Of a DNA stretch of 64,000 nt, positions 5,025 to 26,888 are shown piece by piece. Below the pieces are notes generated by a model. That model saw nothing but the letters and a program-made list of their open reading frames with translations. It searched no databases and was not told the origin of the DNA. This stretch comes from Candidatus Magasanikbacteria bacterium CG1_02_41_34 (GTDB lineage: Bacteria > Patescibacteriota > Patescibacteriia > Magasanikbacterales > UBA922), in assembly GCA_001871445.1 (NCBI GenBank), contig MNVD01000011.1:29382-93381 (forward strand), written 5' to 3'. Each line of letters begins with the position of its first letter. Position 1 is the first letter of the stretch. The position numbers were made by a program, and so were the translations under genes.

Positions 5025-5363
5025 TTATGAAGTTACCTCTTGAGTTTCATCCTCTTTGTTTTTGTGTAATCTCTTTGCTGACTTCTTGCTGGGAGAGTAA
5101 AGGGTATTCTTAATTTTCCACTTATCCACATACTGTCCAATGCCTTTTGTATTCGATTTATTTCGAACGGTCGTCTTCTGTTGTGACCACTTTACTAGAC
5201 TTTCGAAGTTGATCTTGTATCTTCCTGCTACCACTACATAGGTCACTTCTTGGCTTTTGATTGCTCGTCGTATAGTCTGAGGGTTCACCCCAAAGAGGCG
5301 AGCTGCCTCGGATATAGATACTCGAACAATTTCTTGACCTTCGTTTTGAATGATTTCAGGCAT
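5025..5363 (-). CDS. Small excisionase-family (MerR-like) HTH DNA-binding protein
   Basis: Motif 'VSISEAARLFGVNPQTIRRAIKSQEVTYVVVAGRYKINFESLVKW', followed by a basic C-terminal tail. The ATG at 5363 is preferred over the ORF-track TTG at 5387. Confidence 0.55.
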   Translation of the reverse strand: MPEIIQNEGQEIVRVSISEAARLFGVNPQTIRRAIKSQEVTYVVVAGRYKINFESLVKWSQQKTTVRNKSNTKGIGQYVDKWKIKNTLYSPSKKSAKRLHKNKEDETQEVTS

Positions 5364-5803
5364 ATTTGTGTATGTTTTTGTATACAAAATGTATCATAAA
5401 ACCACTTTTTTGTCAAGAGCGTTATCTTTCTTTTTTATTTAAATAGTATACTAGTATATACAAAAACTGCATCTGTAGTACTGTGCGTAGAATAATATTG
5501 AGCAAAGTATACAATAATATATACAAATAGGTACAACAATGTAGAGTTTCCTTTTGTGAATATATGTATATTGTACGACGCATATTAGACGGTTGGTACG
5601 TATATGAGTCAAATTATAACGTAGTTTATTAGCATTGTTGACATTTTTTGTACACTTTTGACATTCAACCTATAAACAATTGCACTATTACACCTCGTAA
5701 GTATGGATTTTTTTAGGTATATCTGCTATACTGCTCTCGTTTCCGGTTGAAATGGATGGACAAAGGAACTGTAACGTTTTCTTATCTTTCACGTCTTCTA
5801 TTT

Positions 5804-6361
5804 ATGAAGAAGGTTAAAAGCCGAATCATTGTACAACGCATACAGAAAGGAAAGGATAGTAATGCTTTCGCAGAGCTATATGACGCGTATGTAGAAAAGA
5901 TGTATCGGTTCATTTCATTTAAAGTGGGCAATCGCCATGTTGCTGAGGATCTGACTAGTGAGTTGTTTCTCAAACTTTGGGAATATCTGACTACCGGAAA
6001 GCAGGTGGACATACAGAGTCTCAACGGACTCGTGTATAGAATGGCGAGAAACCTAGTTATCGATTATTATCGAAAACATGCAGCAGTACAGGAATGTGCG
6101 GTTGAAGATATTTTGCATATATCCGATGGTGTAGATATTGCCGAGCGAGTACATCTTGATATCGAAGTTACAAGTATCCTTTCTCATGTACGAGATTTGA
6201 AACAAGAATATCAGGAGGTTATTCTCCTCAGGTACATTGAAGAACTTTCTATCAAAGAAATTGCAGAAGTGATGAAAAAAAAACGTGGAGCTGTCCGAGT
6301 TACATTGCATCGAGCGACAAAAACACTTCAAGATATACTCATAGATCATCCTTCATCGTAA
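5804..6361 (+). CDS. ECF-type sigma-70 family RNA polymerase sigma factor
   Basis: Region 2 reads 'FAELYDAYVEKMYRFISFKVGNRHVAEDLTSELFLKLWEYL'. Region 4 HTH reads 'ILLRYIEELSIKEIAEVMKKKRGAVRVTLHRATKTLQ'. The ORF-track start (5747) is a TTG. The in-frame ATG at 5804 gives a typical length of about 185 aa. Confidence 0.8.
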   Translation: MKKVKSRIIVQRIQKGKDSNAFAELYDAYVEKMYRFISFKVGNRHVAEDLTSELFLKLWEYLTTGKQVDIQSLNGLVYRMARNLVIDYYRKHAAVQECAVEDILHISDGVDIAERVHLDIEVTSILSHVRDLKQEYQEVILLRYIEELSIKEIAEVMKKKRGAVRVTLHRATKTLQDILIDHPSS

Positions 6362-6371
6362 TACTCATTTT

Positions 6372-7718
6372 GTGTCAAGAATACTCAAAGCACAACTCAA
6401 AAAAGTAAAAAACCTTGAAGGACGTATCAATCCTGACCAGGCTTGGGTTGCGCGTACAAAAACATCATTACTCCAAACAATTGCTTCTGAGACTATAGTA
6501 GCTACAACACCTGTCCGTGCAATGGTAGGAAAAAAACGAGCAGAACAGATGCTTCAAGGGTTTCAAGCTTTTTTCCCAAAAAATATTTTTTCACAAGCAA
6601 GACCAGTATTTATTTCATTGCTGGTTTTTTTGCTTGCTGGGAGTGGGTGGATTGCAAGCGCAAGTGCATCAGAAAGTCTTCCTGGTGACACGTTATGGCA
6701 AGTAAAATTGGCATCAGAAAAAACACAGATTGTTCTTGCAAGCATTACCGGTAATGATAAAAAGAACGTTGCTCTCCAGCTCAAATTTGCAGCACGACGA
6801 GCTGACGAGATCAAGATTGTTACTGGCGAAGAAAAATTTGCACCTGAAGAAAAAGCAAAGCGTGCAGGAGAGGGACTCAAGCAGTTGCAAGAAAACATTG
6901 CTTCTGTAGATACTGCTGTTCATTCTGATGAACAAAAAGAAGATATTAGTAAAGGCGCAAAAGAACTCAATGAGAGTACGGCACAAATCAGTGCTACATT
7001 AAAAGAAGTTGCAAGTACAGTGCAGGATGGTGATGCAGATGCCACACTTACCAAACAAGTCGCCGCAGCACAGCAAGCTGTCGATGAAGTGGGTATCAAT
7101 GCTGTGAAGGTCGCCGTAGAAGGTGCGCAAAATGATGTAGAGCGCACTGCTGCTCAAGTGTTGGTAGAAGAAAAAATAGTCTCAGTGCTCTCTGATGCTG
7201 ATGGTGCGTTGTCCAAAAATGCAGAAGCAAAGGCGCTCATCGAGAATGTAGATGTATCTGAAGGAACTGACGCTACTCACGTTTCTTCTACGATTGCGTT
7301 GAATGACGCACAAGCATCGAGTACTACTGTTACAACAGTAACGAGTGTTTTCGGCACAACAAGTACTGTTAAAGGAATTTCTACTGAAGGAGATGGTGTA
7401 GTTCCTTCACAGACAACAAAACAAATGGTTACTGCCATCCTGGAGCAAGCAGACAAAACGTCTGAGGCAGTGCAAGCGCAAGTTGATCAAATAAAGCAGC
7501 TTATTTCAAACAATGATTTGACTGGGGCACTCGAAAAAGCAAAAGAATTGAAACGAACAACTGTTGTTTCCACACTTCAGACATTGGAAATAAACAAAAC
7601 TGTAGAGCAAGTGACGAATGCTACGCAAACAAAAACATCTGTTGTTCCAAGTAGTAGTGTCACACCACAAAAAACAATTCTTGTACCGATAATATCTACA
7701 AGTACTAGTAAGATCTAG
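6372..7718 (+). CDS. Putative anti-sigma factor or sigma-associated membrane protein. It has a DUF5667-like extracytoplasmic domain and a coiled-coil region rich in Ala, Thr and Ser.
   Basis: A GTG start lies 11 nt after the sigma stop, which suggests translational coupling. There is a short cytoplasmic N-terminus and then a TM helix, 'PVFISLLVFLLAGSGWIASASA'. The segment 'LPGDTLWQVKLASEKTQIVLASITG' resembles DUF5667. A long Ala/Glu/Lys coiled-coil region follows, then a Thr/Ser-rich tail. Confidence 0.45.
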   Translation: MSRILKAQLKKVKNLEGRINPDQAWVARTKTSLLQTIASETIVATTPVRAMVGKKRAEQMLQGFQAFFPKNIFSQARPVFISLLVFLLAGSGWIASASASESLPGDTLWQVKLASEKTQIVLASITGNDKKNVALQLKFAARRADEIKIVTGEEKFAPEEKAKRAGEGLKQLQENIASVDTAVHSDEQKEDISKGAKELNESTAQISATLKEVASTVQDGDADATLTKQVAAAQQAVDEVGINAVKVAVEGAQNDVERTAAQVLVEEKIVSVLSDADGALSKNAEAKALIENVDVSEGTDATHVSSTIALNDAQASSTTVTTVTSVFGTTSTVKGISTEGDGVVPSQTTKQMVTAILEQADKTSEAVQAQVDQIKQLISNNDLTGALEKAKELKRTTVVSTLQTLEINKTVEQVTNATQTKTSVVPSSSVTPQKTILVPIISTSTSKI

Positions 7719-8052
7719 TAACGCACCATGTGTGTACGTGTGTGTTGCTCTAAGATGAAGAGGGGCAGTACACACGTGTACGATATGTGCACGGACGTTA
7801 ATTCAACTTATGACGTGTTACTGTATGGCTTTTCCTTCGACCTCTGGTCGGGGGAGGCTGCCATACAGTAGGCACCTTCTTGATTTGTTCACCCATATTG
7901 GGTGAGATCAAGAACCCATAATACAAAGGTCGAGTCTTCCCAGGCGTATCATGGCATGTACTCTGGGTACATAACACTTCATCTTTATTGACCGTCCTTG
8001 CTATCGCTATGGATGAGCGCAACAAAGGTGGAGCATATATATAAATATTATT

Positions 8053-11000
8053 ATGACTGATGTAATTAACCTTACAAAAAAGGCATTTACATGGTCTGTC
8101 GTTGTAATGACGATAGCCTGGAGTATTGGTCTTTCTGCACTCGCAGCACCTCTTGCTGCAAATGCTGCAGATTGTCCTACACTCGAAGCTGGAGATCTTT
8201 TTAAAGTAAAAGGAAACACAGCTGTATATCTCCTCGACGCAGACATGAAACGTTTGTACTTCCCACATTCTGATGTATATCACACATGGTTTAGTGATTT
8301 CTCAGGTGTTGTAGAAATTGATTCTACATGTGTAAGTGCATACCCAAACGCTGTAAACCCATCTGGTGTTGACTACCGACCAGGCTCACGCCTTGTAAAA
8401 GTAGTTATCTCACCTGAAGTATATGCTGTAGGACCTGGCAATATGCGCCATCTCCTCGGTAGTGAAGAAGAAGCCTCATCACTTTATGGTGCTAACTGGG
8501 CTTCTCTTGTTCGTGATGTTCACGACTTCCACTGGCCAAACTATACGACTGGTGCAGAAGTTAATGGACTTATGAATGGTATGCTTGTAAAGCGTGCTGA
8601 TACTTCTGATGTGACTACTGTGTACGTTGTACAAGATGGAAAACTCCATACTGTAGACGGAACACTTCCTGCTTTTGTAAAAGCAGATGTCCGCACTGTA
8701 GCATCAACACTCGTTGACGCTCTTGAATTGAGCGTTGACTCTGTAACAGCTGCTTCACTTACTGCTGACCCTTCACAGGGAAGTGGAAGTGGAACTCCTG
8801 GAACACCCGTAGTAACTGGTGGAAACGTTTCTGTTTCTCTCGCTGCTGAAACTCCAGGATCTACTGATATTCTTTCTGACAGTGGTTCTGATTACAACCA
8901 AGCAAACATTCCTTTCACCGCTGTACGATTTACAGCTGGAAGTGACGCTGTTGTTGTAAAGACAGTCAAGTTCACGCGAACTGGTATTGCTTCAGACTCT
9001 GATCTTGGAAATTTGTATCTTTATGATGGAGACGCTCGACTTGCAGAATATACAAGCTTTAATGCTAAAGTTGTAACATTCTCAAATAGCACTGGTCTCT
9101 TTACTGTCCCTGCAAACAGCAGTAAGACCGTTATGCTCCGTGGTGACCTTGCAAAATCTGCAGTCACTGGTGGCAAAAAGATCGGATTTGAAGTAGCTAG
9201 CTCTGATCATGTTGTGATCAATGGTGGTAGTGTTACTGGATCATTTCCTGTAGCTGGTAGTCAAATGGCTACTGCACAGGTAACTGATCTTGGTGATCTA
9301 TATCTCACTGGATACACAACATTCCCTGCAACGGTAAAAGCTGATGAAGCTGGAAAAGAACTCTGGCGCATGACCTTGAACGCTGCAGAACAAGACATGG
9401 AACTTCGTTACATGAAATTGACCATGATTGGTACAATTTCTACGAGCGATGTTCAAAACTTGAAACTTGAAGTTGGTGGTGCCCAAGTTGGTGCTACTGC
9501 AAACATTTCTGACGACAGAACTGTTATCTTTGATCTTTCAAGTGCTCCTATTGCTGTGAATGCTGGACAAAGTAAGATTGTTGTCCTTCGTGGTGATATG
9601 ATGGGTGGATCTGGACGTGTATTCAAGTTTAGTGTACAACGTCAAAATGATCTCAAAGCATACGACACAGAATATGGTGTCTATGTAAATCCAACTATCA
9701 CAACTGCTGCTACTTCATTTGGAGTTGTAGAGCCAGAAACTGGAAATGGTACTGACGTAGACAGTGGAACACTCACTATTGGTGTTGCTACTGATTCACC
9801 TACCGGAAGCACTGTTGACGGTGGTACAGGTGTCACCCTAGCTAAATTTACCTTTGATGCCTCTGGTGAAAGTGTAAAGGTAACCAGTTTGCCTGTCTAT
9901 TGTACTGGATCTGACAATACTGACATTCTTGCAAATGTAAAAGTTTTGCTTAATGGCTCACAAGTCGGTTCTACGGATGCTGCAATGACATGTTCTGGTG
10001 TTGGTGGAGTAAACAGCTTTACCTTTGGCAACACATTTGTTGTTGACAGAGATACTGATTCTGTTGTAACTATCGTAGCTGATACTACAGATGCTACGAT
10101 CGTAAATGCTGCTACTCTTTCTGTAAGTCTCAATACTGGTGATACTGGTAATGGGCAAGGTCAAACAACATTGACCGGTATCACTACTACAGGATTGACT
10201 GCTCGTACTCTTACGGTACGAAGTGGAGTCGTGACTGTTTCAGAAAACTCAGCATTTGGTGACAAAACAGCTACAAACCCAACTGGTACTGTAAATGCAG
10301 CTGGTGCACGAATTGCATCATTTGTTATTACAGCTGGTTCTGGTGAAGCTGCTGATGTAACACAAATTTCACTTGCTGATGATGCTACGACAGGATTGGC
10401 ATCAAACTACCAAAAGCTCATGTTGATGCATGATGGTGTACAGATTGGTACAACCGTCAATACACTCAACACAACTGCAAGCACTTACTCATTTACTCCA
10501 TCTACTGCTATCCGTATCGCTGCTGGACAACAGTATGTAGTAGATGTCTATGCTGACATCAAGAGTAGTGCTGCTGATGCTGGTGAAGCTGCATATGCAC
10601 CTGTTCGTCTCGCTGCTACTGCAGTTACTGCGACAGGTGTGAACACAACATCAAATATTAGCTCAACAAACAGTGCTACATCTCTTCAGAATGCATATAT
10701 CGCTGCAAGTGGTAACTTGACTGTTGCTATTTCTGGTGATACTGCTGAAGCTGCTCAAATCGTTCTTGGATCTACAGCTGTAGAACTTGGAACATTCGAA
10801 TTGACAGCTGATGCTGCTGAAAGAATCAACGTTACAGATCTCGTTGTATCTGTTTCGTCTACTGCTGGATACCAAGGTACACTCCGAAACCTCCGCCTCT
10901 ATAAGGACGGTGTTGCATTTGGACCAGCCGTGAATCTTCCAACAGGAGCTGCATCTACTGGAACCTACTACAATGCGACCTTCTCTGGTCTTGCATTGAC

Positions 11001-11718
11001 AGTAGAAAAGAACAGTACTGCAGTAATCACTGTAAAAGCAGACGTTACTACTTTCACCAATGGTGGTGCAAATGGAGACGTAAATGGTTCATTCTTCGCT
11101 GCAATGTTGTCTAACGTTGGAAGTGGAAGTGAACCTGTAACTGCTGTCGGTGAATCATCTGGTGCAAGTATTACCGGTGCACAACTTGACATGGGTACTT
11201 CCCCTGATCTCAATCAAGTCGCAAATGAGATGGTTGCATACCGATCGAAAATTACTGTAGCATTCGCAGGTGACTCACCTAGTGGATCATCTGTTGGAGC
11301 AAGTGCTCAGACTATCGCGAAGTTCGTCGTATCAAACTCAAGCAATGTAGGAAACTACAAAGCAACAGTGAACACAATGAACTTTGCTATTAGCAATACA
11401 GGAATCTCAAATACAGCAACACGAACGATGAATGTATATAAAGATTCTGTTTCTGCTAGCAACTTGCTTGCTACGACCACTGCTGGTTCAGGCACCTTGA
11501 ACTTCGCTGATACTAGTATCAGCACGTTTACAGATGTTGATATCACAGCTGGAAGCTCAAAGACCTTCGTTGTAACACTTGATACAAGTGATGCTGGTAC
11601 TGATGACAAATTGTCTATCGGATTGGCTCAAGGAGATATCGTTTGGTCTGATGACGCTGTAAACGTCATCACCGAAGTAGATGGTCTCCCTCTCGTATCC
11701 AAGACACTTACCTACTAA
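8053..11718 (+). CDS. Giant secreted surface protein with tandem repeats, rich in Thr, Ser, Ala and Gly. It is a candidate S-layer or adhesin glycoprotein.
   Basis: Signal peptide 'KKAFTWSVVVMTIAWSIGLSALAAPLAANA|AD'. About 1221 aa with almost no charged or aromatic core. It contains recurring ~100-120 aa modules. Examples are 'TAVRFTAGSDAVVVKTVKFTRTG...LYLYDGDARL...VTFSN...VPANSSKTVMLRGDL', 'MELRYMKLTMIGTIS...LKLEVGGAQVG...VIFDLS...VNAGQSKIVVLRGDM' and 'LRNLRLYKDGVAFG...ATFSGLALTVEKNSTAVITVKADV'. No stop codon interrupts 3.6 kb. Confidence 0.7.
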   Translation: MTDVINLTKKAFTWSVVVMTIAWSIGLSALAAPLAANAADCPTLEAGDLFKVKGNTAVYLLDADMKRLYFPHSDVYHTWFSDFSGVVEIDSTCVSAYPNAVNPSGVDYRPGSRLVKVVISPEVYAVGPGNMRHLLGSEEEASSLYGANWASLVRDVHDFHWPNYTTGAEVNGLMNGMLVKRADTSDVTTVYVVQDGKLHTVDGTLPAFVKADVRTVASTLVDALELSVDSVTAASLTADPSQGSGSGTPGTPVVTGGNVSVSLAAETPGSTDILSDSGSDYNQANIPFTAVRFTAGSDAVVVKTVKFTRTGIASDSDLGNLYLYDGDARLAEYTSFNAKVVTFSNSTGLFTVPANSSKTVMLRGDLAKSAVTGGKKIGFEVASSDHVVINGGSVTGSFPVAGSQMATAQVTDLGDLYLTGYTTFPATVKADEAGKELWRMTLNAAEQDMELRYMKLTMIGTISTSDVQNLKLEVGGAQVGATANISDDRTVIFDLSSAPIAVNAGQSKIVVLRGDMMGGSGRVFKFSVQRQNDLKAYDTEYGVYVNPTITTAATSFGVVEPETGNGTDVDSGTLTIGVATDSPTGSTVDGGTGVTLAKFTFDASGESVKVTSLPVYCTGSDNTDILANVKVLLNGSQVGSTDAAMTCSGVGGVNSFTFGNTFVVDRDTDSVVTIVADTTDATIVNAATLSVSLNTGDTGNGQGQTTLTGITTTGLTARTLTVRSGVVTVSENSAFGDKTATNPTGTVNAAGARIASFVITAGSGEAADVTQISLADDATTGLASNYQKLMLMHDGVQIGTTVNTLNTTASTYSFTPSTAIRIAAGQQYVVDVYADIKSSAADAGEAAYAPVRLAATAVTATGVNTTSNISSTNSATSLQNAYIAASGNLTVAISGDTAEAAQIVLGSTAVELGTFELTADAAERINVTDLVVSVSSTAGYQGTLRNLRLYKDGVAFGPAVNLPTGAASTGTYYNATFSGLALTVEKNSTAVITVKADVTTFTNGGANGDVNGSFFAAMLSNVGSGSEPVTAVGESSGASITGAQLDMGTSPDLNQVANEMVAYRSKITVAFAGDSPSGSSVGASAQTIAKFVVSNSSNVGNYKATVNTMNFAISNTGISNTATRTMNVYKDSVSASNLLATTTAGSGTLNFADTSISTFTDVDITAGSSKTFVVTLDTSDAGTDDKLSIGLAQGDIVWSDDAVNVITEVDGLPLVSKTLTY

Positions 11719-11770: not shown

Positions 11771-11799
11771 AAACACCCCCGGAATTCGGGGGTGTTTTG
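11771..11799 (+). terminator. Strong rho-independent terminator after the giant surface-protein gene
   Basis: The sequence 'acacccccg gaatt cgggggtgt' gives a 9-bp GC-rich stem with a 5-nt loop. A T-run, 'tttt', follows at 11795-11798. Confidence 0.8.
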
Positions 11800-11858
11800 A
11801 TCTATCCATGTTACTTGCTTCGGAGGCGTCTATCGGCTATACTATTGTTCATATGTAT

Positions 11859-14099
11859 ATGAATAAAATAACAAAGATCATTGTAGGAGGGCTCTTTGTT
11901 TCTGTTATTTTTCCTCTTCTCTTCACCCCTCAGACTATGTTTCCTTGGGGGTATGGGAAAGAGTTGTTTTTTGTATTTCTCATTGCATGTTTAGGGTTGC
12001 TTTCTCTACCGATATTGTGGAAGTACAAAAATACTACAACAGCTATGATGAGTCATATCACCATGGTTGATGTATTTTTTTTGTTGTTTATATGTTCATT
12101 TTTTCTCAGTACGTTCCTAGGTTTTGAGCCTGTTCGTAGTTTTTGGGGAGATCAAAGTAGAGGAGGGGGAGCGCTATTGTGGGGACAACTCGGAGTGTAT
12201 TACGTATTCCTTCGTATATTTTTTCAAACCAAAAAACAATGGAGGTACTTTGGCATGGGTATTATAGGGGTAGGACTAGTAGGAAGCCTTATTGCATGGC
12301 TAGGTGCGTATACGTCAGCATTTTCTGGCGTTATTATGAAAAGTAGTCATCTCAGTGGACTCGCAGGCAATCCTATATTTTTTGCATCGTCATTGATACC
12401 ACCCTTATATGTTTCACTTTCTTTTCTCTTTGTAGAGACAGAAAAGTGGAAACGTTACATATTCGGTGGTGTTGCAGGTATTTTGCTCATTACTCTGCTT
12501 GCGACACAAGTGCGAGGAGCATTTCTTGGGTTGCTCGTGTCTCTTGTCAGTATGGGGGTATATTTTACGATTGCAAAAAAAGCGTTTGTGAAAAAAAGAA
12601 GGATTTCCGTTTTGCTTTCTTTAGTTGTAAGTAGTGTATTGATTGTGGGGTTAATTTTTTGGAATACTCGAACGAGCGTACTTGCAGAAGTCTCACCAAC
12701 ACTGTCTCGTATGTTTACCATATCTACAGAGACAGGCACTGGACAAACGCGTCTTATGGCATGGAAGATCGCATTGAGGGGAGCTGTAGAGCATCCTGTC
12801 TTAGGATGGGGGCCAGAGTCATTTCAATTTATATTTGACACCTATTACAACCCTGCATTTTTAAGATTTTCTTTTTCGGAAACAGTGTGGGATCGTCCAC
12901 ATAATTTTTTTCTTTCAATTTTGACAGGACAAGGGCTTGTGGGGCTGTCACTCTATCTGTTTTTTTTGGCTTTGTTGGCAGGGGCCTTATTCAAAAAAAT
13001 TCGACAGGAGGTGAACCCTGCACAGGTGTGGTTTCTTCTGTTTCTTTTTGGTGGGATTGTGAACTATGTAGTCCAAAGTTTTTTTGGTGTGGAAGTATTC
13101 CATTCCCTCATTGTGTGGGTTGCATTTTTGGCATATGTATCTTTTGTTATTGGATCGAACACACAGAGCGCCTCATGGTTTCAAGGATCTCATCATAAAT
13201 CTATCGTACTTGTTGGTGCTGGTATTCTTCTCCTTTGTACCCCGTGGATTTTGTTCACAGTCCCACGATTGTATCAATCGAGTGTTGCTATGGCTTCAAG
13301 TAGAGATATCGCTCGATCAGGAAACTCTGAAGGGTGGAAGGAATCAGTGGAAAAAGTAGTAGGGATAGATGCTCCTATACAGTGGGAGCAAGCAAGATAT
13401 ATTGTACAGGATATTTCTTATCTTGATGGAGCAAAACTATTGAAAAGCAAAGATCTCAGTCTAATTGCCCCCAAACTTTTGAATATATTTGAAACTGATA
13501 TATCTCGAAATCCAAAATCATATCAATATTATTTTTGGACTGCAGAGCTCTATGGATTTATGGGTGAATATATGGATTCGCAGTACTTGGAAAAAAATAA
13601 AGAATTTTTGCTTAGGGCAGGAGAGCATAGCCCTACACAGCAACGTATTCCACTTCTTTTGGCAAAAAATGATATCCTAAACGGAAACGTTGATGGTGGT
13701 GTTGAGAGGCTTCATCAATTGTTGGATACAGATCCAAGCATAGCTGAGGTCCGTTGGTTTTATGGCCTTGCGCTTATTGAACAGGGTAATAAAGATAGTG
13801 GGCTGGAAGAACTTGAAGCAAGTGGTTCTTTTGGTTTTACTGTTGATTCTAATATCGTATATGTGATAGATTTGTATGCACAAGATGAACAATATGAACA
13901 TATTATTCCATTGTATCAATTGTTGATACAGCGTCATCCTGGCGAGAGTACGTGGTATGCCAGAATTGCCGCAACATACGCAGCAATGGGACAAAGAGAT
14001 AATGTGATAGAAGCTATCAATACTGCTGTAGAGTTAGATCCTTCCTTAAAAACAGAAGCCATGGAATTTTTACAGTCTCAAGGAATTTCCTCCTTTTGA
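11859..14099 (+). CDS. Wzy_C-domain polytopic membrane protein with a C-terminal TPR domain. It belongs to the O-antigen ligase / O-oligosaccharyltransferase / polymerase family.
   Basis: At least 10 predicted TM helices. Family motifs are 'QVRGAFLGLLVSL', 'HPVLGWGPESFQFIF' and 'RPHNFFLSILTGQGLVGL'. The third matches the H-N-x-x-L-E...G-x-x-G signature seen in WaaL and PglL. About 300 C-terminal residues look like TPR ('AATYAAMGQRDNVIEAINTAVELDPSL'). The ATG at 11859 is preferred over the ORF-track start at 11736, which would overlap the upstream terminator. Confidence 0.65.
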   Translation: MNKITKIIVGGLFVSVIFPLLFTPQTMFPWGYGKELFFVFLIACLGLLSLPILWKYKNTTTAMMSHITMVDVFFLLFICSFFLSTFLGFEPVRSFWGDQSRGGGALLWGQLGVYYVFLRIFFQTKKQWRYFGMGIIGVGLVGSLIAWLGAYTSAFSGVIMKSSHLSGLAGNPIFFASSLIPPLYVSLSFLFVETEKWKRYIFGGVAGILLITLLATQVRGAFLGLLVSLVSMGVYFTIAKKAFVKKRRISVLLSLVVSSVLIVGLIFWNTRTSVLAEVSPTLSRMFTISTETGTGQTRLMAWKIALRGAVEHPVLGWGPESFQFIFDTYYNPAFLRFSFSETVWDRPHNFFLSILTGQGLVGLSLYLFFLALLAGALFKKIRQEVNPAQVWFLLFLFGGIVNYVVQSFFGVEVFHSLIVWVAFLAYVSFVIGSNTQSASWFQGSHHKSIVLVGAGILLLCTPWILFTVPRLYQSSVAMASSRDIARSGNSEGWKESVEKVVGIDAPIQWEQARYIVQDISYLDGAKLLKSKDLSLIAPKLLNIFETDISRNPKSYQYYFWTAELYGFMGEYMDSQYLEKNKEFLLRAGEHSPTQQRIPLLLAKNDILNGNVDGGVERLHQLLDTDPSIAEVRWFYGLALIEQGNKDSGLEELEASGSFGFTVDSNIVYVIDLYAQDEQYEHIIPLYQLLIQRHPGESTWYARIAATYAAMGQRDNVIEAINTAVELDPSLKTEAMEFLQSQGISSF

Positions 14100-14119
14100 T
14101 ACATGTTATCTATACTTAT

Positions 14120-14752
14120 ATGAACAAAAAAAAATATATCATTTTTATCCTTATCACTGTACTTTTCGTTGCCGGAGGTGCTTACTTGTTTGTACAACGT
14201 TCTCATTCTTCGCTGCAGAACGAACAGTATTATAGTAAGACATCATACATCGAAGCACTACACGCATTTTCATTGGAGCATCCTGAACTGAGTGAGTTTA
14301 CGACCCTTGTAGACGAAGAAGAAGCAAAAATTGCAGCAGCTCCGTCAAATACAGAGGGATATCTGAGTCTTGGGTTGGCATGGAAAAGTCTTGCAGACAG
14401 GGCAGGAGACCCTCCAAACATGTTTTATGAAGCAGCATTTGAAGTATATAAGAGAGGTATAGAACTTACGGATAGAAGGGATACAACGTTTTTAAAAAAT
14501 GCAGCAAACATGGCGGAGTTTCAAAAGGATTTTGATACCTCTGAAACATTATTGCAAGAAGCTATTGTAGCAACTCCGGGTGATGCTGATCTATATATTC
14601 GGTTAGCAGACGTATATACATATCTTATGAAGAAGCCGACACAAGAAATTATAGATTTTTTGGATACTGGCATTGAAATTTTGCCAAATGCGACAAGATT
14701 AGAAAATTACAAAAAACGTCTAGAGACGAATGAGCAGAGTAATAATTTATAA
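14120..14752 (+). CDS. Small membrane-anchored TPR-like protein (hypothetical)
   Basis: N-terminal TM helix 'YIIFILITVLFVAGGAYLFV', then a helical repeat region. It lies between the two Wzy_C-TPR paralogs. ATG at 14120. Confidence 0.35.
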   Translation: MNKKKYIIFILITVLFVAGGAYLFVQRSHSSLQNEQYYSKTSYIEALHAFSLEHPELSEFTTLVDEEEAKIAAAPSNTEGYLSLGLAWKSLADRAGDPPNMFYEAAFEVYKRGIELTDRRDTTFLKNAANMAEFQKDFDTSETLLQEAIVATPGDADLYIRLADVYTYLMKKPTQEIIDFLDTGIEILPNATRLENYKKRLETNEQSNNL

Positions 14753-14758: not shown

Positions 14759-16846
14759 ATGTTGTACTCAAAATTGTTAGATAAAACCGAACAAATACTC
14801 CGTTATACAATATTGTGTTTGATCACGACAACTTTTTTAGTCCCATTGATCATGGCTCCATCTTTTATTTTTCCTTTTATTGTACCAAAAATACTGGCAT
14901 TTCGCACAATTGTTATTTTGATGAGTGTTACGTATGTCATGTTGCTCTGGAAATATCCAAAAAAATATGCACCTGGAAAAAACATTGTTACTATAAGCGT
15001 ATTCCTTTTTTTGTTCAGTTTTGCTATATCTACATTTACTGGTGTAGATTGGTATAGAAGTCTTTGGGACAATCATGAACGAATGTTGGGACTTTTTACC
15101 TTTGTTCATTATGTTATTTATTTTTTCGTGTTGTCGAGTGTCATACAGTCGAAGGAAGAATGGATACAATTGTTTCGTTTTTTTCTCGGTGCAGGGATGC
15201 TGGTAGTTATTATTGGCGTATGGCAAAAATCAATCAATCCTGAACTTTTGCTCAATAGAGGTGCTTTTCGTGTCTCTTCTACACTTGGAAATGCTATCTA
15301 CTTAAGTGGATATGGCCTTTTTTTGGCTACAATCGGTGCATTACTTGCATATTGGGAGAATGTAAACATGTGGCGTATTTATGCCGCAATTGGGGCTTTT
15401 CTTGGTATAGTAGGTATTTTTTTAGGAGGAACACGAGGAACCTTGCTTGGGTTTCTCGCTGGCTTGGGAATTGGTCTTGCTTGGTTTATATTCTATGCAA
15501 AAGCAAATAAAAGAATGAAGAAATTTGTATTGCTGGGTACAAGTTGTTTGTTGATGTTTTTTGTGTCTTTGTTCTTTTTTCGTAGTTCGGATGTCGTGCG
15601 TCACATGCCATTGATTGGTCGTCTTGCCGAAACATCATTGTCGTCAGGGACTGCGGAAACACGTATTATGGCGTGGCAGATTGCTTTTGAAGCGTGGAAA
15701 GATAAACCATTTTTTGGGTGGGGACCAAATAATTTTTATTATGCATTTAACGAATTCTACAACCCAACGTTTCTCGAGCATGGATATCAAGAGACATGGT
15801 TTGATAATGCACATAATATTGTCATGAATACACTCACGACACAGGGTGCTTTTGGACTGGCAGTGTATATTATCCTATTTGGTGGAGCAATATATGCTCT
15901 GATAAAAATGAAAGATGACGATATACTTGGCGGGCTGGTAAGTGTTATCATTGTCAGTTTTCTGATAGCACATTTTATTCACAATGTATTCGTATTCGAA
16001 AATCCTACGTCATATTTGTACTTTTTTACGATACTAGGTTTTATCGCCAGTTCGTACAAAACCTTTTTAAAGAAAACAAAAACCGTGAAAGTTAAAAACG
16101 TTGTATCGCAACACCTTGGGGTAGGAAAAATGTCTATACTTTTGTTTGTTGCACTACTTTTTGTGTTTTCAACAGAAATAAATCCAGCTCGAGCAAATAA
16201 GACCATTGCTCTAGCTATCAAATCTGTCAGTACAGACCCTGAACTAAGTATTGCTCAGTATCGTAAGGCAACATCAATCCCAAGTCCTCATATTGATGAT
16301 ATTAGGAATGATATGTCCCGCATTTATTTACAGGCAATACCTTTTTTGATTGATCAGCATCAAAATGAAATAGCAAATACATATTTTGCAGAAGCAAAAA
16401 AGAGTATGGAAGAAAATCTTCTTTTGCATCCACGAGATATTCGTGTGCATATGCAGTTGGCTCAGGTGCTTTTGCAGGGAGCGCGGCTAAAACAGGATAT
16501 TTCCTATATTCAGCAGGCAAAACAGATACTGCGTATTGCATTGGTCTATTCTCCCAAACGTCAACAGTTAGTTTTTCAATATACTCAAATATTGGATATT
16601 CTTACTGAATATGATGAGGCCTTATCTCTTCTAAGACAAGTTGTAGACGACGACCCTCATATTGTAGAAAGTTGGGCACGGTTGATTTATATGTATGGAA
16701 GAGCAGGAGAAAAGGACTTGGCTGTACAGGTATATCAAGAAGCATTAACAGCTGGTATTGATTTTAGTGGTGATTTTTCAAATACGGTAAATTCAGTAAT
16801 ATCGGCATCTACATCATCGACATCCAATATTCATTCAGTAGAGTAA
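14759..16846 (+). CDS. Second Wzy_C-domain membrane protein with a C-terminal TPR domain, paralogous to 11859..14099
   Basis: Same motif set as the first paralog: 'GTRGTLLGFLAGL', 'DKPFFGWGPNNFYYAF' and 'NAHNIVMNTLTTQGAFGL'. The TPR-like tail reads 'VDDDPHIVESWARLIYMYGRAGEKDLAVQVYQEAL'. Confidence 0.65.
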   Translation: MLYSKLLDKTEQILRYTILCLITTTFLVPLIMAPSFIFPFIVPKILAFRTIVILMSVTYVMLLWKYPKKYAPGKNIVTISVFLFLFSFAISTFTGVDWYRSLWDNHERMLGLFTFVHYVIYFFVLSSVIQSKEEWIQLFRFFLGAGMLVVIIGVWQKSINPELLLNRGAFRVSSTLGNAIYLSGYGLFLATIGALLAYWENVNMWRIYAAIGAFLGIVGIFLGGTRGTLLGFLAGLGIGLAWFIFYAKANKRMKKFVLLGTSCLLMFFVSLFFFRSSDVVRHMPLIGRLAETSLSSGTAETRIMAWQIAFEAWKDKPFFGWGPNNFYYAFNEFYNPTFLEHGYQETWFDNAHNIVMNTLTTQGAFGLAVYIILFGGAIYALIKMKDDDILGGLVSVIIVSFLIAHFIHNVFVFENPTSYLYFFTILGFIASSYKTFLKKTKTVKVKNVVSQHLGVGKMSILLFVALLFVFSTEINPARANKTIALAIKSVSTDPELSIAQYRKATSIPSPHIDDIRNDMSRIYLQAIPFLIDQHQNEIANTYFAEAKKSMEENLLLHPRDIRVHMQLAQVLLQGARLKQDISYIQQAKQILRIALVYSPKRQQLVFQYTQILDILTEYDEALSLLRQVVDDDPHIVESWARLIYMYGRAGEKDLAVQVYQEALTAGIDFSGDFSNTVNSVISASTSSTSNIHSVE

Positions 16847-16856: not shown

Positions 16857-17645
16857 ATGCCAAAAATAAGTGTTCTATTATGCGTGTATAACGGTGATGA
16901 CTATGTACGCGGTGCTCTTGATAGTATTCTTTCTCAGACGTATAGTGATTTTGAGTGTGTTATTATTGATGACGCTTCCTCAGACACAACACCACACATA
17001 CTACGTGAGTATGCATCAAAAGATAATAGGATACATATACATACAAATGATAAAAATATGGGACTCACAGCATCTCTCCAAGATGGGCTGTCATATTGCA
17101 ATGGAAAGTATATAGCAAGAATGGATGTCGATGATATTGCAAGACGTGATAGGTTCGAAAAGCAATATGCATTTATGGAAGAACATCCTGACGTGGCGTT
17201 ATGTGGTTCCTTTGCAACTGTTATCGATGAAAAAGAAAGTACTATTGGAAAAAAGATATTTCCGACATCCTCAGTAGATATAAAAAAAAGACTTTTATTT
17301 AACAATCAGTTTGTTCACTCTACTCTTTTTTTTATAAAAGAAAAAATAGTAGACATTGGAGGGTATGATGTTTTTTTCAAAAAAAGTCAGGATTATGATT
17401 TGGTATTCCGTGTTGGATCTGTATACACCGTTGCAAATATTCCTGAATATCTTGTATCATGGCGCTTGGGCTCTCGGAGCATTTCTTGGCAGAGTAGGGG
17501 ACAAGAAATGTATGCGCTTCGGGCACGATGGAACGCAATTACAAGATATGGATATCCAAAAATCAATGGAATATACCACATTGTGGTACGAGCAATTTGG
17601 TTGTGTGTACCACTTTCGTTAAAAAGAAAGCGATATGTTCGTTAG
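16857..17645 (+). CDS. GT2-family glycosyltransferase
   Basis: 'ISVLLCVYNGDDYVRGALDSILSQTYSDFECVIIDDASSDTT', followed by a DxD-type motif, 'ARMDVDD'. Confidence 0.8.
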   Translation: MPKISVLLCVYNGDDYVRGALDSILSQTYSDFECVIIDDASSDTTPHILREYASKDNRIHIHTNDKNMGLTASLQDGLSYCNGKYIARMDVDDIARRDRFEKQYAFMEEHPDVALCGSFATVIDEKESTIGKKIFPTSSVDIKKRLLFNNQFVHSTLFFIKEKIVDIGGYDVFFKKSQDYDLVFRVGSVYTVANIPEYLVSWRLGSRSISWQSRGQEMYALRARWNAITRYGYPKINGIYHIVVRAIWLCVPLSLKRKRYVR

Positions 17646-19717: not shown

Positions 19718-19754
19718 TACAGTACTATTCTTATACTCGTGAAGCATAGATACT

Positions 19755-20777: not shown

Positions 20778-20783
20778 TTATAT

Positions 20784-21698: not shown

Positions 21699-21704
21699 AT
21701 TACT

Positions 21705-22640: not shown

Positions 22641-22644
22641 TAGT

Positions 22645-23613: not shown

Positions 23614-23615
23614 GT

Positions 23616-25747: not shown

Positions 25748-25756
25748 TAGTAATAT

Positions 25757-26824: not shown

Positions 26825-26834
26825 CTGACACCCT

Positions 26835-26864
26835 TTGACACTTATTGGCCCTTTATGGTAATAT
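26835..26864 (+). promoter_or_regulatory. Near-consensus sigma-70-type promoter upstream of the HTH gene
   Basis: TTGACA (26835-26840), an 18-nt spacer, then TAATAT (26859-26864). It lies 24 nt upstream of the ATG at 26889. Confidence 0.5.
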
Positions 26865-26888
26865 ACAATTGTTGGTCTAATTGTAAAT

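What the first reader, a model, noticed from the sequence alone, without database searches (positions are those of the whole stretch)
8053..11718. Giant low-complexity tandem-repeat surface protein
The 3.67-kb ORF has a clear Sec signal ending in ANA|AD. Its body consists of recurring ~100-120-aa beta-rich modules. Each has conserved hydrophobic anchors (…KFT/FxV…, LxLYDG/KDG, VTF/IFD, 'tVxLRGDL/M', 'VKADV') separated by Thr/Ser/Gly-rich linkers. There are no Cys pairs, few charged residues and no recognisable anchoring motif. The composition resembles S-layer or adhesin proteins.

The gene is noticeably GC-richer than the downstream glycan genes. It ends in the strongest terminator in the window (11771-11799).
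Basis: seen in the sequence. Interest (0 to 1): 0.6.

Follow-up and report, generated by a model that had tools for sequence, protein, structure and literature searches.

The report
Patescibacterial six-domain S-layer protein gene
This gene most likely encodes the main surface-coat (S-layer) protein of an ultra-small "candidate phyla radiation" bacterium; the protein family was already proposed in a 2024 preprint, but its conserved neighbours (a dedicated sigma/anti-sigma pair, sugar-attaching enzymes, an unexplained leader motif) appear not to have been described.

Summary
The ORF 8053-11718 is real: 1221 aa with a Sec-type signal peptide. It is neither low-complexity nor a recent tandem repeat.

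Architecture:
- An N-terminal domain of three ~65-aa repeats.
- One short disordered linker.
- Six anciently duplicated Ig-like beta-sandwich domains of about 150-180 aa each. They are 14-24% identical to each other and detectable only by profile comparison.
- The AlphaFold2 model has mean pLDDT 89.

There is no Pfam, NCBIfam or PDB sequence match. The family is nevertheless huge within Patescibacteria: 4280 clusters at 50% identity.

Size, six-Ig architecture and taxonomy match the "six Ig-like domain" Patescibacterial S-layer protein family of Johnston et al. 2024. Homologues of that family are among the most highly expressed secreted proteins (Kuroda et al. 2024). I could not fetch the reference sequences for a direct comparison.

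Points that seem new at the locus level:
- A conserved module: ECF sigma, DUF5667 anti-sigma, structured leader, S-layer gene, strong terminator, then Wzy_C-TPR / TPR / Wzy_C-TPR. A 35-kb low-GC glycan cluster follows in this window. This mirrors Gram-positive S-layer glycosylation loci.
- Mosaic swapping of the N-terminal anchor, which is PG_binding_1 in some homologues.
- A conserved leader motif, AAGGTCG.

Verdict: new member of a known (recently predicted) kind. Interest is moderate.

The parts
5025..5387 (-). Small HTH (excisionase/MerR-like, HTH_17-type) protein gene, divergent from the sigma gene. A possible extra regulator of the module.
   Evidence: ORF with an HTH-like sequence VSISEAARLFGVNPQTIRRAIK. 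An HTH_17 gene sits in the same position in L001 and L003. Not tested further.
5770..5796 (+). ECF-type promoter of the sigma operon: -35 TGTAAC (5770-5775), 16-nt spacer, -10 CGTCT (5792-5796). The ATG at 5804 follows 7 nt later, so the transcript is probably leaderless or nearly so.
   Evidence: Sequence read. The same TGTAA[CT]-N16-CGT[CA]T lies upstream of the sigma start in 15 of 16 related loci, about 35 nt upstream in 10 of them. The transcription start is inferred, not shown.
5804..6361 (+). ECF sigma factor, 185 aa from the ATG at 5804. The mechanical ORF begins at 5747.
   Evidence: Pfam Sigma70_r2, Sigma70_r4_2 and Sigma70_ECF; NCBIfam sigma70-ECF at 80.7 bits against a cutoff of 42.9. 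Found upstream of the big gene in 16 of 24 non-redundant loci, and also in L033-L035.
6372..7718 (+). Putative membrane anti-sigma factor, 448 aa. It has one TM region near residues 72-99, an extracytoplasmic DUF5667 domain and a Ser/Thr-rich tail.
   Evidence: DUF5667 match at E 7.6e-5, 23.5 bits, below the Pfam cutoff of 27. TM region from hydropathy. Homologues sit between sigma and the big gene in related loci and in Ca. Yanofskyibacterium. The anti-sigma role is inferred from position.
7719..8052 (+). 334-nt, highly structured leader/intergenic region with several long hairpins, for example about 7728-7790 and about 7811-7879.
   Evidence: RNA MFE -124.6 kcal/mol, z = -5.7 against dinucleotide shuffles. 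No Rfam family at gathering threshold or at E <= 5. The hairpin ACTGTATGGC...GCCATACAGT is shared with L001 and L015, with a different interior.
7926..7932 (+). Conserved leader motif AAGGTCG. Function unknown.
   Evidence: 17 occurrences in the 500-nt leaders of 27 loci against 0.35 expected, Poisson P 4e-23. In 13 of 15 cases a sequence-variable hairpin follows within a few nt, beginning 1 nt after the motif in 12; the control rate is 28%. The window copy is one of the two without that immediate hairpin.
8053..8166 (+). Signal peptide, residues 1-38, with predicted cleavage at ANA|AD.
   Evidence: Sequence features read: K9K10, a hydrophobic core, and A at -3 and -1. N-termini are conserved in orthologues.
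8167..8757 (+). N-terminal domain (mature 1-197) made of three ~65-aa alpha/beta repeats. Proposed cell-wall anchor. Cys41 and Cys93 probably form a disulfide.
   Evidence: Internal repeats at 5-68, 69-133 and 134-192 by HHalign. AlphaFold2 pLDDT 96, pTM 0.89. The only fold matches are weak ones to EccB repeat domains, E 2e-3. Some homologues carry PG_binding_1 or other N-termini instead. A copy of the repeat occurs in a second secreted protein at 52463-52792.
8758..8826 (+). Ser/Gly/Thr/Pro-rich disordered linker between the anchor and the body.
   Evidence: Contains the only stretch with pLDDT below 50, mature 206-216.
8827..11715 (+). Six consecutive Ig-like beta-sandwich domains. D1 8827-9279, D2 9280-9735, D3 9736-10206, D4 10207-10704, D5 10705-11250, D6 11251-11715. 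Proposed lattice-forming body.
   Evidence: Profile self-alignment. All 15 domain pairs are homologous at HHalign probability 96-99.7%. AlphaFold2 pLDDT 89.3, all beta. Foldseek hits only multi-Ig proteins.
11771..11802 (+). Intrinsic terminator: an 11-bp GC-rich stem, a 5-nt loop and a short T tract.
   Evidence: An equivalent strong hairpin plus T tract follows the stop codon in about 14 related loci despite unrelated sequence.
11853..14099 (+). Wzy_C (O-antigen-ligase family) membrane protein with a C-terminal TPR domain. Candidate oligosaccharyl:protein O-transferase or glycan ligase.
   Evidence: Pfam Wzy_C 7.5e-20 plus TPR. A Wzy_C homologue is the next homologous gene downstream of the big gene in 17 of 19 loci that have downstream sequence. 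The function is inferred by analogy with WsaB/WsfB/PglL.
14096..14752 (+). Small TPR protein with an N-terminal TM or signal anchor, so the TPR domain is probably outside the membrane.
   Evidence: Pfam TPR_14. One TM at residues 15-33. Conserved between the two Wzy_C genes. Analogous to WsaA next to WsaB.
14759..16846 (+). Second Wzy_C-TPR membrane protein.
   Evidence: Pfam Wzy_C 8.9e-20 plus TPR. Conserved position.
16857..51890 (.). Low-GC glycan biosynthesis cluster. It contains GT2 and GT4 glycosyltransferases, GDP-mannose 4,6-dehydratases and epimerases, a Wzx-like flippase (27228-28790), methyltransferases, UDP-Glc dehydrogenases, a DegT aminotransferase and a YfhO/DUF6044 GT-C (43197-45320). 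A WbaP-like initiating transferase lies at 50340-51890 on the minus strand.
   Evidence: Pfam scans. GC 0.339 for 14-47 kb against about 0.40 in the flanks. Its link to the S-layer protein is inferred from adjacency.

Best explanation
The gene encodes the S-layer protein of a Patescibacteria (CPR) bacterium, probably of the ABY1 group (Uhrbacteria/Magasanikbacteria-like).

**Proposed mechanism**
1. The precursor is exported by Sec and cleaved after Ala38.
2. The N-terminal three-repeat domain holds the protein on the peptidoglycan or wall polymer of this outer-membrane-less cell.
3. A short flexible linker leads to six Ig-like domains. These assemble into the paracrystalline coat seen on CPR cells by cryo-EM. 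[quoted passage not shown]
4. During or after export, the Thr/Ser-rich surface is probably O-glycosylated by the adjacent Wzy_C-TPR / TPR / Wzy_C-TPR proteins. They would use lipid-linked glycans made by the downstream low-GC cluster.
5. Expression is high. The gene has a long, very stable structured leader and its own strong terminator.
6. Expression is coupled to an upstream autoregulated ECF sigma / DUF5667 anti-sigma pair, which probably reports on envelope or S-layer status.

**Shown:** domain architecture, homology of the six domains to one another, family size, conserved gene order, conserved terminator, the sigma promoter and the leader motif.

**Inferred:** lattice formation, wall binding, glycosylation and sigma control.
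For: **Architecture**
- Signal peptide, three-repeat N-terminal domain, then six homologous Ig-like domains.
- Mature protein is 121 kDa, pI 4.4, 41% hydrophobic, 23% Ser+Thr, with only 4 Cys. These are classic S-layer protein statistics.

**Match to the published family**
- Johnston et al. 2024 describe a Patescibacterial S-layer protein with "six Ig-like assembly domains". [quoted passage not shown] They predict a p6 lattice of 18.5 nm.
- The family here has 4280 clusters at 50% identity with E <= 1e-3, mostly 1100-1350 aa.

**Expression evidence from relatives**
- Homologues with PG-binding N-termini are among the five most expressed signal-peptide genes in Paceibacteria.
- I find PG_binding_1-type homologues with 39% identity to the body of this protein.
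- The highly expressed Ca. Yanofskyibacterium gene 00350 sits directly after a DUF5667 gene (00351) and an ECF sigma gene (00352). That is the same order as here.

**Conserved locus features**
- The sigma / anti-sigma / S-layer gene order holds in 16 of 24 loci, and also in L033-L035, which include a Nealsonbacteria locus.
- A strong terminator follows the gene in about 14 loci.
- The leader folds with z = -5.7.

**Glycosylation context**
- A Wzy_C gene follows the S-layer gene in 17 of 19 loci with downstream sequence, usually as Wzy_C-TPR, small TPR protein, Wzy_C-TPR.
- A low-GC glycan cluster follows in this window.
- This mirrors S-layer glycosylation loci: the WsaB/WsfB O-transferases carry Wzy_C, WsfB has a C-terminal TPR, and the small TPR protein WsaA sits next to WsaB. 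The sgsE gene is adjacent to its slg cluster and monocistronic, and slg clusters have low GC.

**Other support**
- Anchor and body have discordant histories, as expected for S-layer proteins.
- S-layers are seen on CPR cells by cryo-EM.
Against: - pTM is only 0.53, so the arrangement of domains relative to one another is not established.
- Direct sequence comparison with the published reference proteins (A0A1G2EN61, A0A1F5NRV7, A0A0G1WWP5, A0A1F4NSF7, GMX59286.1) could not be done. Identity of the two families rests on architecture, taxonomy, the PG-binding variants and synteny.
- The published S-layer assignment is itself a prediction in a preprint. Kuroda et al. read the same highly expressed proteins as host-attachment factors.
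- The N-terminal domain has no significant match to any known wall-binding fold. The best hit is EccB at E 2e-3, TM about 0.24.
- The ECF promoter motif is absent from the S-layer gene leader in most loci, so sigma control of this gene is unproven.
- ECF control would be unusual for a constitutive coat protein.
- Wzy_C proteins could instead polymerise or ligate a wall polysaccharide.
Confidence: 0.72

Rival explanations
1. It is a wall-anchored fibrillar adhesin or host-attachment factor rather than a lattice-forming coat. The six Ig-like domains would act as a stalk that projects a binding surface toward the host cell of this presumably episymbiotic bacterium.
For: - Foldseek's best matches include adhesin-type Ig arrays such as PrgB, cadherin and integrin legs.
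- Kuroda et al. interpret the highly expressed PG-binding-domain/Ig proteins as host-adhesion related.
- CPR bacteria are mostly episymbionts.
- The C-terminal half is replaced in some relatives, as might be expected for host-specific tips.
Against: - The repeats are ancient (14-24% identity). Most near-full-length homologues are 1100-1350 aa and the aligned orthologues cover all six domains, unlike stalk repeats, which are near-identical and vary in number.
- No distinct non-Ig tip domain is present.
- No LPXTG or other adhesin sorting signal is present.
- The family is very large and widespread in Patescibacteria, with one main copy per locus examined.
- Very high expression and a published lattice prediction for the matching family.
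Confidence: 0.17
2. It is a wall-associated scaffold or substrate of a polysaccharide export/ligation machine. The Wzy_C-TPR proteins would build a wall glycan and the big protein would organise or bind it, without forming an S-layer.
For: - Tight and widespread linkage to two Wzy_C-TPR genes and a TPR protein.
- A large glycan cluster lies downstream.
- A YfhO-like GT-C, typical of teichoic-acid glycosylation, is in the cluster.
Against: - Some homologous loci lack an adjacent Wzy_C gene (L003, L035), yet keep the sigma / anti-sigma / big-gene order.
- A terminator separates the big gene from the Wzy_C genes.
- The size and six-Ig architecture fit the published S-layer model better.
Confidence: 0.07
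3. It is an enzyme or a protease-trap (alpha-2-macroglobulin-like) protein.
For: Foldseek lists alpha-2-macroglobulin and complement proteins among its hits.
Against: - These hits are generic matches between Ig/MG domain arrays, with TM 0.09-0.12.
- No thioester, bait region or catalytic domain is present.
- No Pfam, NCBIfam or PDB sequence match was found.
Confidence: 0.02

Closest known systems
Patescibacterial six-Ig-domain S-layer protein family (Johnston, Isbilir, Alva, Bharat, Doye 2024, bioRxiv 10.1101/2024.05.28.596244; for example A0A1G2EN61, A0A1F5NRV7, A0A0G1WWP5, A0A1F4NSF7, GMX59286.1)
   Same: - Signal peptide, six consecutive Ig-like domains, and 1131-1274 aa against 1221 aa here.
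- Restricted to Patescibacteria and very numerous there.
- Some members carry a peptidoglycan-binding N-terminus.
- A related 3-domain member (GMX57981.1 = PMX_810_sub_00350) sits in the same sigma / DUF5667 / S-layer gene order.
   Different: - Direct sequence homology to the named proteins was not testable here.
- This protein carries a different N-terminal module: three ~65-aa repeats with no Pfam match.
- As far as I could read it, the preprint does not describe the sigma/anti-sigma pair, the Wzy_C-TPR genes, the anchor swapping or the leader motif.
Haloferax volcanii S-layer glycoprotein (csg)
   Same: Six Ig-like domains in a row and heavy glycosylation. Johnston et al. note a "striking resemblance" in basic architecture.
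   Different: - It is archaeal, has a C-terminal PGF-CTERM lipid anchor and is N-/O-glycosylated by AglB-type machinery.
- A profile search of the PDB found no sequence similarity.
- Here the anchor is N-terminal and the predicted tip is the C-terminal domain.
Gram-positive S-layer glycoproteins and their slg loci (Geobacillus stearothermophilus SgsE with WsaA/WsaB; Paenibacillus alvei SpaA with WsfB)
   Same: - A monocistronic S-layer gene sits next to a low-GC glycan cluster.
- The predicted O-oligosaccharyltransferase has a Wzy_C domain.
- A TPR is either fused (WsfB) or encoded as a separate small protein (WsaA).
- A WbaP-like initiating transferase is present (one search compared).
   Different: - No sequence or domain homology between the S-layer proteins; there is no SLH domain and no Pfam hit.
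- Two Wzy_C-TPR genes here instead of one.
- A Wzx-type flippase here rather than the Wzm/Wzt ABC transporter.
- An ECF sigma/anti-sigma pair lies upstream.
Highly expressed PG-binding-domain/Ig-like secreted proteins of Ca. Yanofskyibacterium and Ca. Minisyncoccaceae (Kuroda et al. 2024, mBio 15:e03102-23)
   Same: - Same phylum.
- An N-terminal wall-binding module followed by Ig-like domains.
- Among the top-expressed secreted proteins.
- The neighbouring DUF5667 and ECF sigma genes match.
   Different: - Those proteins have an InterPro-recognisable PG-binding domain, and one has only three Ig domains.
- The authors interpreted them as host-attachment enzymes, not as an S-layer.

Membership tests
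Patescibacterial six-Ig-domain S-layer protein (Johnston et al. 2024) | N-terminal signal peptide for export | tested here: met
   Residues 1-38 with K9K10, a hydrophobic core and ANA|AD. Conserved in orthologues.
Patescibacterial six-Ig-domain S-layer protein (Johnston et al. 2024) | [quoted passage not shown] | tested here: met
   Six homologous beta-sandwich domains. Precursor is 1221 aa.
Patescibacterial six-Ig-domain S-layer protein (Johnston et al. 2024) | A means of anchoring to the cell | tested here: inconclusive
   A distinct N-terminal three-repeat domain exists (pLDDT 96). Some homologues carry PG_binding_1 in its place. Its own fold matches only EccB repeats, weakly. Wall binding is inferred.
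Patescibacterial six-Ig-domain S-layer protein (Johnston et al. 2024) | Sequence homology to the reference proteins (A0A1G2EN61, A0A0G1WWP5, GMX59286.1 and others) | not testable with these tools
   The reference sequences could not be fetched. Two cluster look-ups of length-matched hits did not return those accessions. The afdb50 library was unavailable.
Patescibacterial six-Ig-domain S-layer protein (Johnston et al. 2024) | Confident multimer prediction of hexamer plus trimer/dimer contacts giving a p6 lattice | not testable with these tools
   Only monomer prediction is offered. Monomer pTM is 0.53.
Patescibacterial six-Ig-domain S-layer protein (Johnston et al. 2024) | Numerous homologues across Patescibacterial classes | tested here: met
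   4280 clusters at E <= 1e-3 and 712 at E <= 1e-30. Named hits include Magasanikbacteria, Uhrbacteria, Falkowbacteria, Komeilibacteria, Azambacteria, Woesebacteria, Nealsonbacteria, Pacebacteria and Sungbacteria.
Patescibacterial six-Ig-domain S-layer protein (Johnston et al. 2024) | Very high expression | not testable with these tools
   Only indirect signs are available: a stable structured leader, a conserved strong terminator, and the same sigma/DUF5667 neighbourhood as the highly expressed Yanofskyibacterium gene.
SLH-anchored Gram-positive S-layer (glyco)proteins (SgsE/SbsA/Sap/SpaA type) | SLH or another catalogued wall-binding domain; sequence relation to known S-layer proteins | tested here: not met
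   No Pfam or NCBIfam family at E <= 1 apart from noise. No PDB sequence relative by profile search.
SLH-anchored Gram-positive S-layer (glyco)proteins (SgsE/SbsA/Sap/SpaA type) | Adjacent slg-type glycosylation locus with a Wzy_C O-oligosaccharyltransferase and TPR | tested here: met
   Wzy_C-TPR, TPR and Wzy_C-TPR at 11853-16846, plus the glycan cluster. Conserved in 17 of 19 loci. Compare the review.
SLH-anchored Gram-positive S-layer (glyco)proteins (SgsE/SbsA/Sap/SpaA type) | Covalent O-glycans on Ser/Thr/Tyr of the protein | not testable with these tools
   Requires mass spectrometry. The sequence shows only 23% Ser+Thr.
Fibrillar adhesins with Ig/Big stalks | Near-identical tandem stalk repeats, variable in number | tested here: not met
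   No DNA tandem repeat and no BLASTP self-hit. Domains are 14-24% identical. Most near-full-length homologues are 1100-1350 aa.
Fibrillar adhesins with Ig/Big stalks | C-terminal LPXTG/sortase signal or an autotransporter/T1SS signal, and a distinct adhesive tip domain | tested here: not met
   The C-terminus is ...LPLVSKTLTY, with no LPXTG followed by a TM. All domains after the linker are the same Ig-like type.

The most novel reading that the evidence does not exclude
The conserved module would be a previously undescribed, self-monitoring S-layer assembly and glycosylation system specific to Patescibacteria. The module is: leaderless ECF sigma, DUF5667 anti-sigma, structured leader with AAGGUCG, S-layer gene, terminator, then Wzy_C-TPR / TPR / Wzy_C-TPR.

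In this reading:
- The extracytoplasmic DUF5667 domain of the anti-sigma senses S-layer or wall status.
- The AAGGUCG-plus-hairpin element is a new cis-acting RNA signal. It could act in processing, stabilisation or protein binding, and would uncouple the very high S-layer mRNA level from the weakly expressed sigma operon.
- The paired Wzy_C-TPR enzymes are protein O-oligosaccharyltransferases that recognise the Ig domains through their TPRs.
Probability: 0.2. Interest if true: 0.65.

Novelty: new member of a known kind. Interest (0 to 1): 0.45.

Why it matters
CPR/Patescibacteria are a large, mostly uncultured part of bacterial diversity. Their envelope is their interface with host cells. The S-layer has been seen by cryo-EM, but its genetics rest on one recent structure-prediction study.

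This locus adds testable context:
- A dedicated ECF sigma/anti-sigma pair with a clear promoter.
- Candidate S-layer O-glycosyltransferases and a glycan cluster.
- Modular exchange of the wall anchor.
- A conserved leader motif.

Together these give concrete handles for metatranscriptomics, glycoproteomics and work in the few cultivable CPR systems. They also provide a practical marker set for annotating thousands of "hypothetical" 1200-aa CPR proteins.

Tried and rejected
- **Repeat detection.** DNA tandem repeats (TRF) and BLASTP self-comparison found nothing. The repeats appeared only with profile-profile self-alignment.
- **Family and structure look-ups.** Pfam and NCBIfam scans of the protein gave no family. 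A profile search of PDB sequences gave only spurious designed WD-like repeats. Foldseek of the N-terminal domain against the PDB gave only weak EccB hits. I recalled from memory that EccB repeats resemble an endolysin wall-binding domain, but a literature search for that link found nothing, so I do not rely on it.
- **SLH idea.** I suspected that the Woesebacteria homologue P0067 has an SLH-like N-terminus. Pfam did not support this, so the idea was dropped.
- **Reference accessions.** Two cluster look-ups failed to reach the published accessions.
- **Foreign origin.** The higher GC of the gene does not indicate foreign origin, because GC3 equals that of its neighbours.
- **ECF promoter in front of the S-layer gene.** It is absent in most loci and present only in L012 and L027.
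- **Leader as a known RNA.** The leader matches no Rfam family. RNAalifold on an ungapped MAFFT alignment of the motif region gave no consensus structure. The hairpin evidence is therefore alignment-free only.
- **AAGGTCG as a promoter element.** Reading the motif as a -35 or -10 element was rejected, because its distance to the downstream AT-rich boxes varies from 17 to 34 nt (inspection).
- **Wzy_C topology.** Hydropathy could not settle the membrane topology of the Wzy_C-TPR proteins.

Full report

The ORF at 8053-11718 (+) exists and encodes 1221 aa. The N-terminus is a typical long monoderm-type Sec signal. It has K9K10, a hydrophobic core and Ala at -3 and -1, giving ANA|AD with cleavage after residue 38.

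However, Tandem Repeats Finder sees no DNA repeat and BLASTP finds no self-hit. I therefore built a 72-sequence alignment of homologues (A1) and aligned its profile against itself.

- Strong off-diagonal matches (E 1e-65 down to 1e-7) define six units. In mature-protein coordinates these are about 221-371, 372-523, 524-680, 681-846, 847-1028 and 1029-1183.
- Three shorter repeats lie at the N-terminus: 5-68, 69-133 and 134-192.
- All 15 pairs of the six units are homologous, with HHalign probability 96-99.7% and E 1e-9 to 1e-24. They share only 14-24% identity.

The modules are therefore real, but they are about 150-180 aa long and ancient. They are not 100-120 aa low-complexity repeats.

AlphaFold2 on A1 gives a confident model with mean pLDDT 89.3. 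It shows an alpha/beta N-terminal domain, one disordered stretch (mature 206-216) and six all-beta domains.

**2. Other details of the finding**

- There are four Cys (41, 93, 617, 647), forming two plausible pairs. The first pair is conserved in most orthologues that have this N-terminus, and C647 in at least 90% of close ones.
- The mature protein is 121 kDa, pI 4.42, 40.7% hydrophobic and 22.9% Ser+Thr, with D+E 114 and K+R 65.
- The gene's GC is 0.433, against 0.339 for 14-47 kb. But GC3 is 0.26, like its neighbours at 0.26-0.33. The difference therefore reflects Ala/Gly/Thr/Val-rich coding. It is the glycan cluster that is GC-poor relative to the flanks, which are about 0.40.
- The hairpin at 11771-11799 is as described. 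The region folds at -33.6 kcal/mol, z = -5.1. It ranked first in my window-wide scan for hairpin plus T tract, although the consensus scanner missed it.
- A comparable GC-rich hairpin plus T tract follows the stop codon in about 14 related loci, with unrelated sequences.

**3. What family is it?**

No Pfam or NCBIfam model matches. No solved structure is related by sequence. Foldseek of the full model against the PDB returns only generic multi-Ig arrays at low TM. These include PrgB Ig domains, integrin legs, alpha-2-macroglobulins, cadherin and the Nitrosopumilus S-layer.

Yet the family is very large.

- The word-indexed search found at least 256 homologues, all from Patescibacteria where named. 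Most near-full-length ones are about 1200-1270 aa.
- The exhaustive search of 1.84 billion representatives found 4280 clusters at E <= 1e-3, 2953 at 1e-10 and 712 at 1e-30.
- The closest named relatives are Magasanikbacteria and "Paceibacter" MAGs, at 58%.
- The N-terminal domain is 85% identical to an Uhrbacteria protein. This places the organism in the ABY1-type Patescibacteria.

**4. Literature**

CPR cells carry S-layers and lack an outer membrane according to cryo-EM.

The supplement of Johnston et al. 2024 (bioRxiv 10.1101/2024.05.28.596244) reports the following:

- It resembles the Haloferax volcanii S-layer protein.
[quoted passage not shown] - The listed proteins are 1131-1274 aa.
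- Homologues were among the five most expressed signal-peptide genes in two Paceibacteria species studied by Kuroda et al. 2024 (mBio 15:e03102-23). A three-domain version was among them in a third species, Ca. Yanofskyibacterium.

Kuroda et al. describe those proteins as carrying peptidoglycan-binding domains and interpret them as host-attachment factors.

The present protein fits this family in signal peptide, six Ig-like domains, length and taxonomy. I could not obtain the reference sequences, so direct homology remains untested. Two bridges support identity of the families.

- Many homologues of this protein's body carry an N-terminal PG_binding_1 domain. P0050 scores 36.8 bits for that domain and has 39% body identity. 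Others are named [quoted passage not shown].
- In Kuroda's supplementary table, the highly expressed gene PMX_810_sub_00350 (692 aa) is followed on the same strand by 00351 (DUF5667) and 00352 (ECF sigma). That is the gene order seen in this window.

**5. Genomic context, which I believe is the new part**

Upstream lie an ECF sigma gene (5804-6361) and a 448-aa membrane protein with a DUF5667 domain (6372-7718).

Across 24 non-redundant related loci the pattern is as follows.

- The sigma gene precedes the big gene in 16 loci.
- Of the other eight, three lack enough upstream sequence. Three are Azambacteria-type proteins with a different N-terminus. Two are distant Saccharibacteria hits.
- The triad is also present in three PG-binding-type loci, including a Nealsonbacteria locus.

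Upstream of the sigma gene there is a textbook ECF promoter, TGTAA[CT]-N16-CGT[CA]T, in 15 of 16 loci. In 10 of these it lies about 35 nt upstream of the sigma start. In the window, the -35 element is at 5770-5775 and the -10 element at 5792-5796. The ATG at 5804 follows only 7 nt after the -10, which implies a leaderless sigma mRNA. This promoter is not found in front of the big gene, except in L012 and L027.

Downstream, after the terminator, come three genes: Wzy_C-TPR (11853-14099), a small TPR protein with an N-terminal membrane anchor (14096-14752) and a second Wzy_C-TPR (14759-16846). A Wzy_C gene follows the big gene in 17 of 19 loci that have downstream sequence, usually in this three-gene arrangement.

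A low-GC glycan cluster of about 35 kb then follows in this window. It contains:

- GT2 and GT4 glycosyltransferases.
- GDP-mannose dehydratases.
- A Wzx-like flippase.
- Methyltransferases.
- UDP-Glc dehydrogenases.
- A DegT aminotransferase.
- A YfhO-like GT-C.
- A WbaP-like initiating transferase at 50340-51890 (-).

This matches the logic of Gram-positive S-layer glycosylation loci reviewed by Ristl et al. (PMC2943079):

- The predicted S-layer O-oligosaccharyltransferases WsaB and WsfB carry Wzy_C.
- WsfB, like PglL, has a C-terminal TPR.
- WsaB is accompanied by the small TPR protein WsaA.
- sgsE and sgtA lie next to their slg clusters and are transcribed monocistronically.
- slg clusters have lower GC than the rest of the genome.

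**6. Anchor**

The N-terminal 197 residues fold confidently on their own (pLDDT 96, pTM 0.89). The only structural neighbours are the repeat domains of mycobacterial EccB, and these are weak (E 2e-3, TM about 0.24).

The argument for an anchoring role is evolutionary.

- In homologues the same body is fused to PG_binding_1, or to other N-terminal modules of about 150-200 aa.
- A copy of the repeat occurs in another secreted protein in this window, at 52463-52792.
- Anchor and body have discordant histories. P0052 and P0049 are 85% identical in the signal peptide and N-terminal domain but at most 38% in the body. P0001 and P0003 are 44-53% identical in the N-terminal domain but 54-75% in the body.

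**7. Leader**

The 334-nt region 7719-8052 is extremely structured, with MFE -124.6 kcal/mol and z = -5.7. It matches no Rfam family.

The heptamer AAGGTCG (window 7926-7932) occurs 17 times in the 500-nt leaders of 27 loci, against 0.35 expected (P about 4e-23). The loci with the motif include PG-binding-type and Nealsonbacteria loci.

- In 13 of 15 cases a sequence-variable hairpin follows within a few nt of the motif, beginning 1 nt after it in 12. The control rate is 28%.
- In 11 of 15 cases a GRYC tetramer 4-6 nt upstream can pair with GGUC, with G-U pairs allowed.

This suggests an RNA element. An ungapped alignment gave no RNAalifold consensus, however, and the window copy lacks the immediate hairpin. 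I leave its function open.

**8. Mechanism**

Shown: the architecture, the homology among the six domains, the family distribution, the conserved neighbours, the sigma promoter, the terminator and the leader motif.

Inferred:
1. Sec export and signal cleavage.
2. Wall attachment through the N-terminal domain.
3. Lattice assembly by the six Ig domains.
4. O-glycosylation by the Wzy_C-TPR proteins using the downstream cluster's glycan.
5. High, insulated expression from a stabilised or processed leader, with a link to ECF sigma/anti-sigma signalling.

**9. Rival explanations**

- *Host adhesin.* This is disfavoured by the ancient repeats, by the uniform length of most near-full-length homologues, by the absence of a tip domain or sortase signal, and by the size and wide distribution of the family.
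- *Glycan-machine scaffold.* This is disfavoured because the sigma / anti-sigma / big-gene order persists where no Wzy_C gene is adjacent.
- *Enzyme or macroglobulin-like protease trap.* There is no support for this.

**10. Verdict**

This is a new member of a recently predicted kind, the Patescibacterial six-Ig S-layer protein. The "low-complexity tandem repeat" description, the module size, the Cys statement and the "no anchor" statement were not.

Interest is moderate (0.45). The protein family is already in the literature as a preprint prediction. The conserved regulatory and glycosylation module, the anchor mosaicism and the leader motif are useful, testable additions.

Noticed in passing
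window 7926-7932 (and leaders of L001-L004, L006, L007, L009, L010, L013-L015, L022, L025, L032, L033, L035): The heptamer AAGGTCG is conserved in the leader of the S-layer gene: 17 hits in 27 leaders against 0.35 expected. In 13 of 15 cases a sequence-variable hairpin follows within a few nt, and a GRYC tetramer that can pair with GGUC often precedes it. There is no Rfam match. It may be a new cis-acting RNA or protein-binding element.
   Followed up: partly
window 7719-8052: The intergenic leader is exceptionally structured (MFE -124.6 kcal/mol for 337 nt, z = -5.7), with several long, near-perfect hairpins. The outer stem ACTGTATGGC/GCCATACAGT is shared with L001 and L015, while the inner stems differ but stay paired.
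   Followed up: partly
window 5770-5806: An ECF-type promoter, TGTAAC-N16-CGTCT, ends 7 nt before the sigma ATG at 5804, which implies a leaderless sigma mRNA. The motif is conserved in 15 of 16 related loci, and its spacing to the start is the same in 10 of them. It is missing from most S-layer gene leaders.
   Followed up: yes
window 51800-53329 (+): A second secreted protein (509 aa) carries a copy of the N-terminal ~65-aa repeat module at 52463-52792 (tblastn E 1e-6). Asp-rich, thrombospondin-type-3-like calcium-binding repeats follow. The next gene (53319-55304) looks like a subtilisin-type protease by eye (HGTSFAAP motif).
   Followed up: no
window 14000-47000: A low-GC island (0.27-0.38, against about 0.40 in the flanks) coincides with the glycan biosynthesis cluster. 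The lowest GC (0.27-0.30) is at 42-46 kb, around a DUF6044/YfhO-like GT-C membrane protein (43197-45320).
   Followed up: partly
homologues P0052, P0049, P0057 compared with window 8053-11718: Evolution is mosaic. The signal peptide and N-terminal domain are 70-85% identical to the window protein, while the Ig body is at most 38% identical (about 22-26% beyond D1). The opposite pattern is seen in P0001 and P0003. This suggests recombination between the anchor and body modules.
   Followed up: partly
window 5025-5387 (-): A small HTH_17-like gene lies divergent from the sigma operon and is conserved in L001 and L003. PG-binding-type loci (L033, L035) instead have an HTH_DeoR gene, with GTAGGACA/TGTCCTAC palindromes upstream of sigma.
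   Followed up: no
window 25-4932: The upstream neighbours are conserved with the Magasanikbacteria locus L001. They are a GHL15 glycosyl-hydrolase-like protein with FG-GAP repeats (25-1710), a GT4 glycosyltransferase (1775-3049, -) and a DUF11/CLIPPER-repeat protein (3139-4932, -).
   Followed up: no
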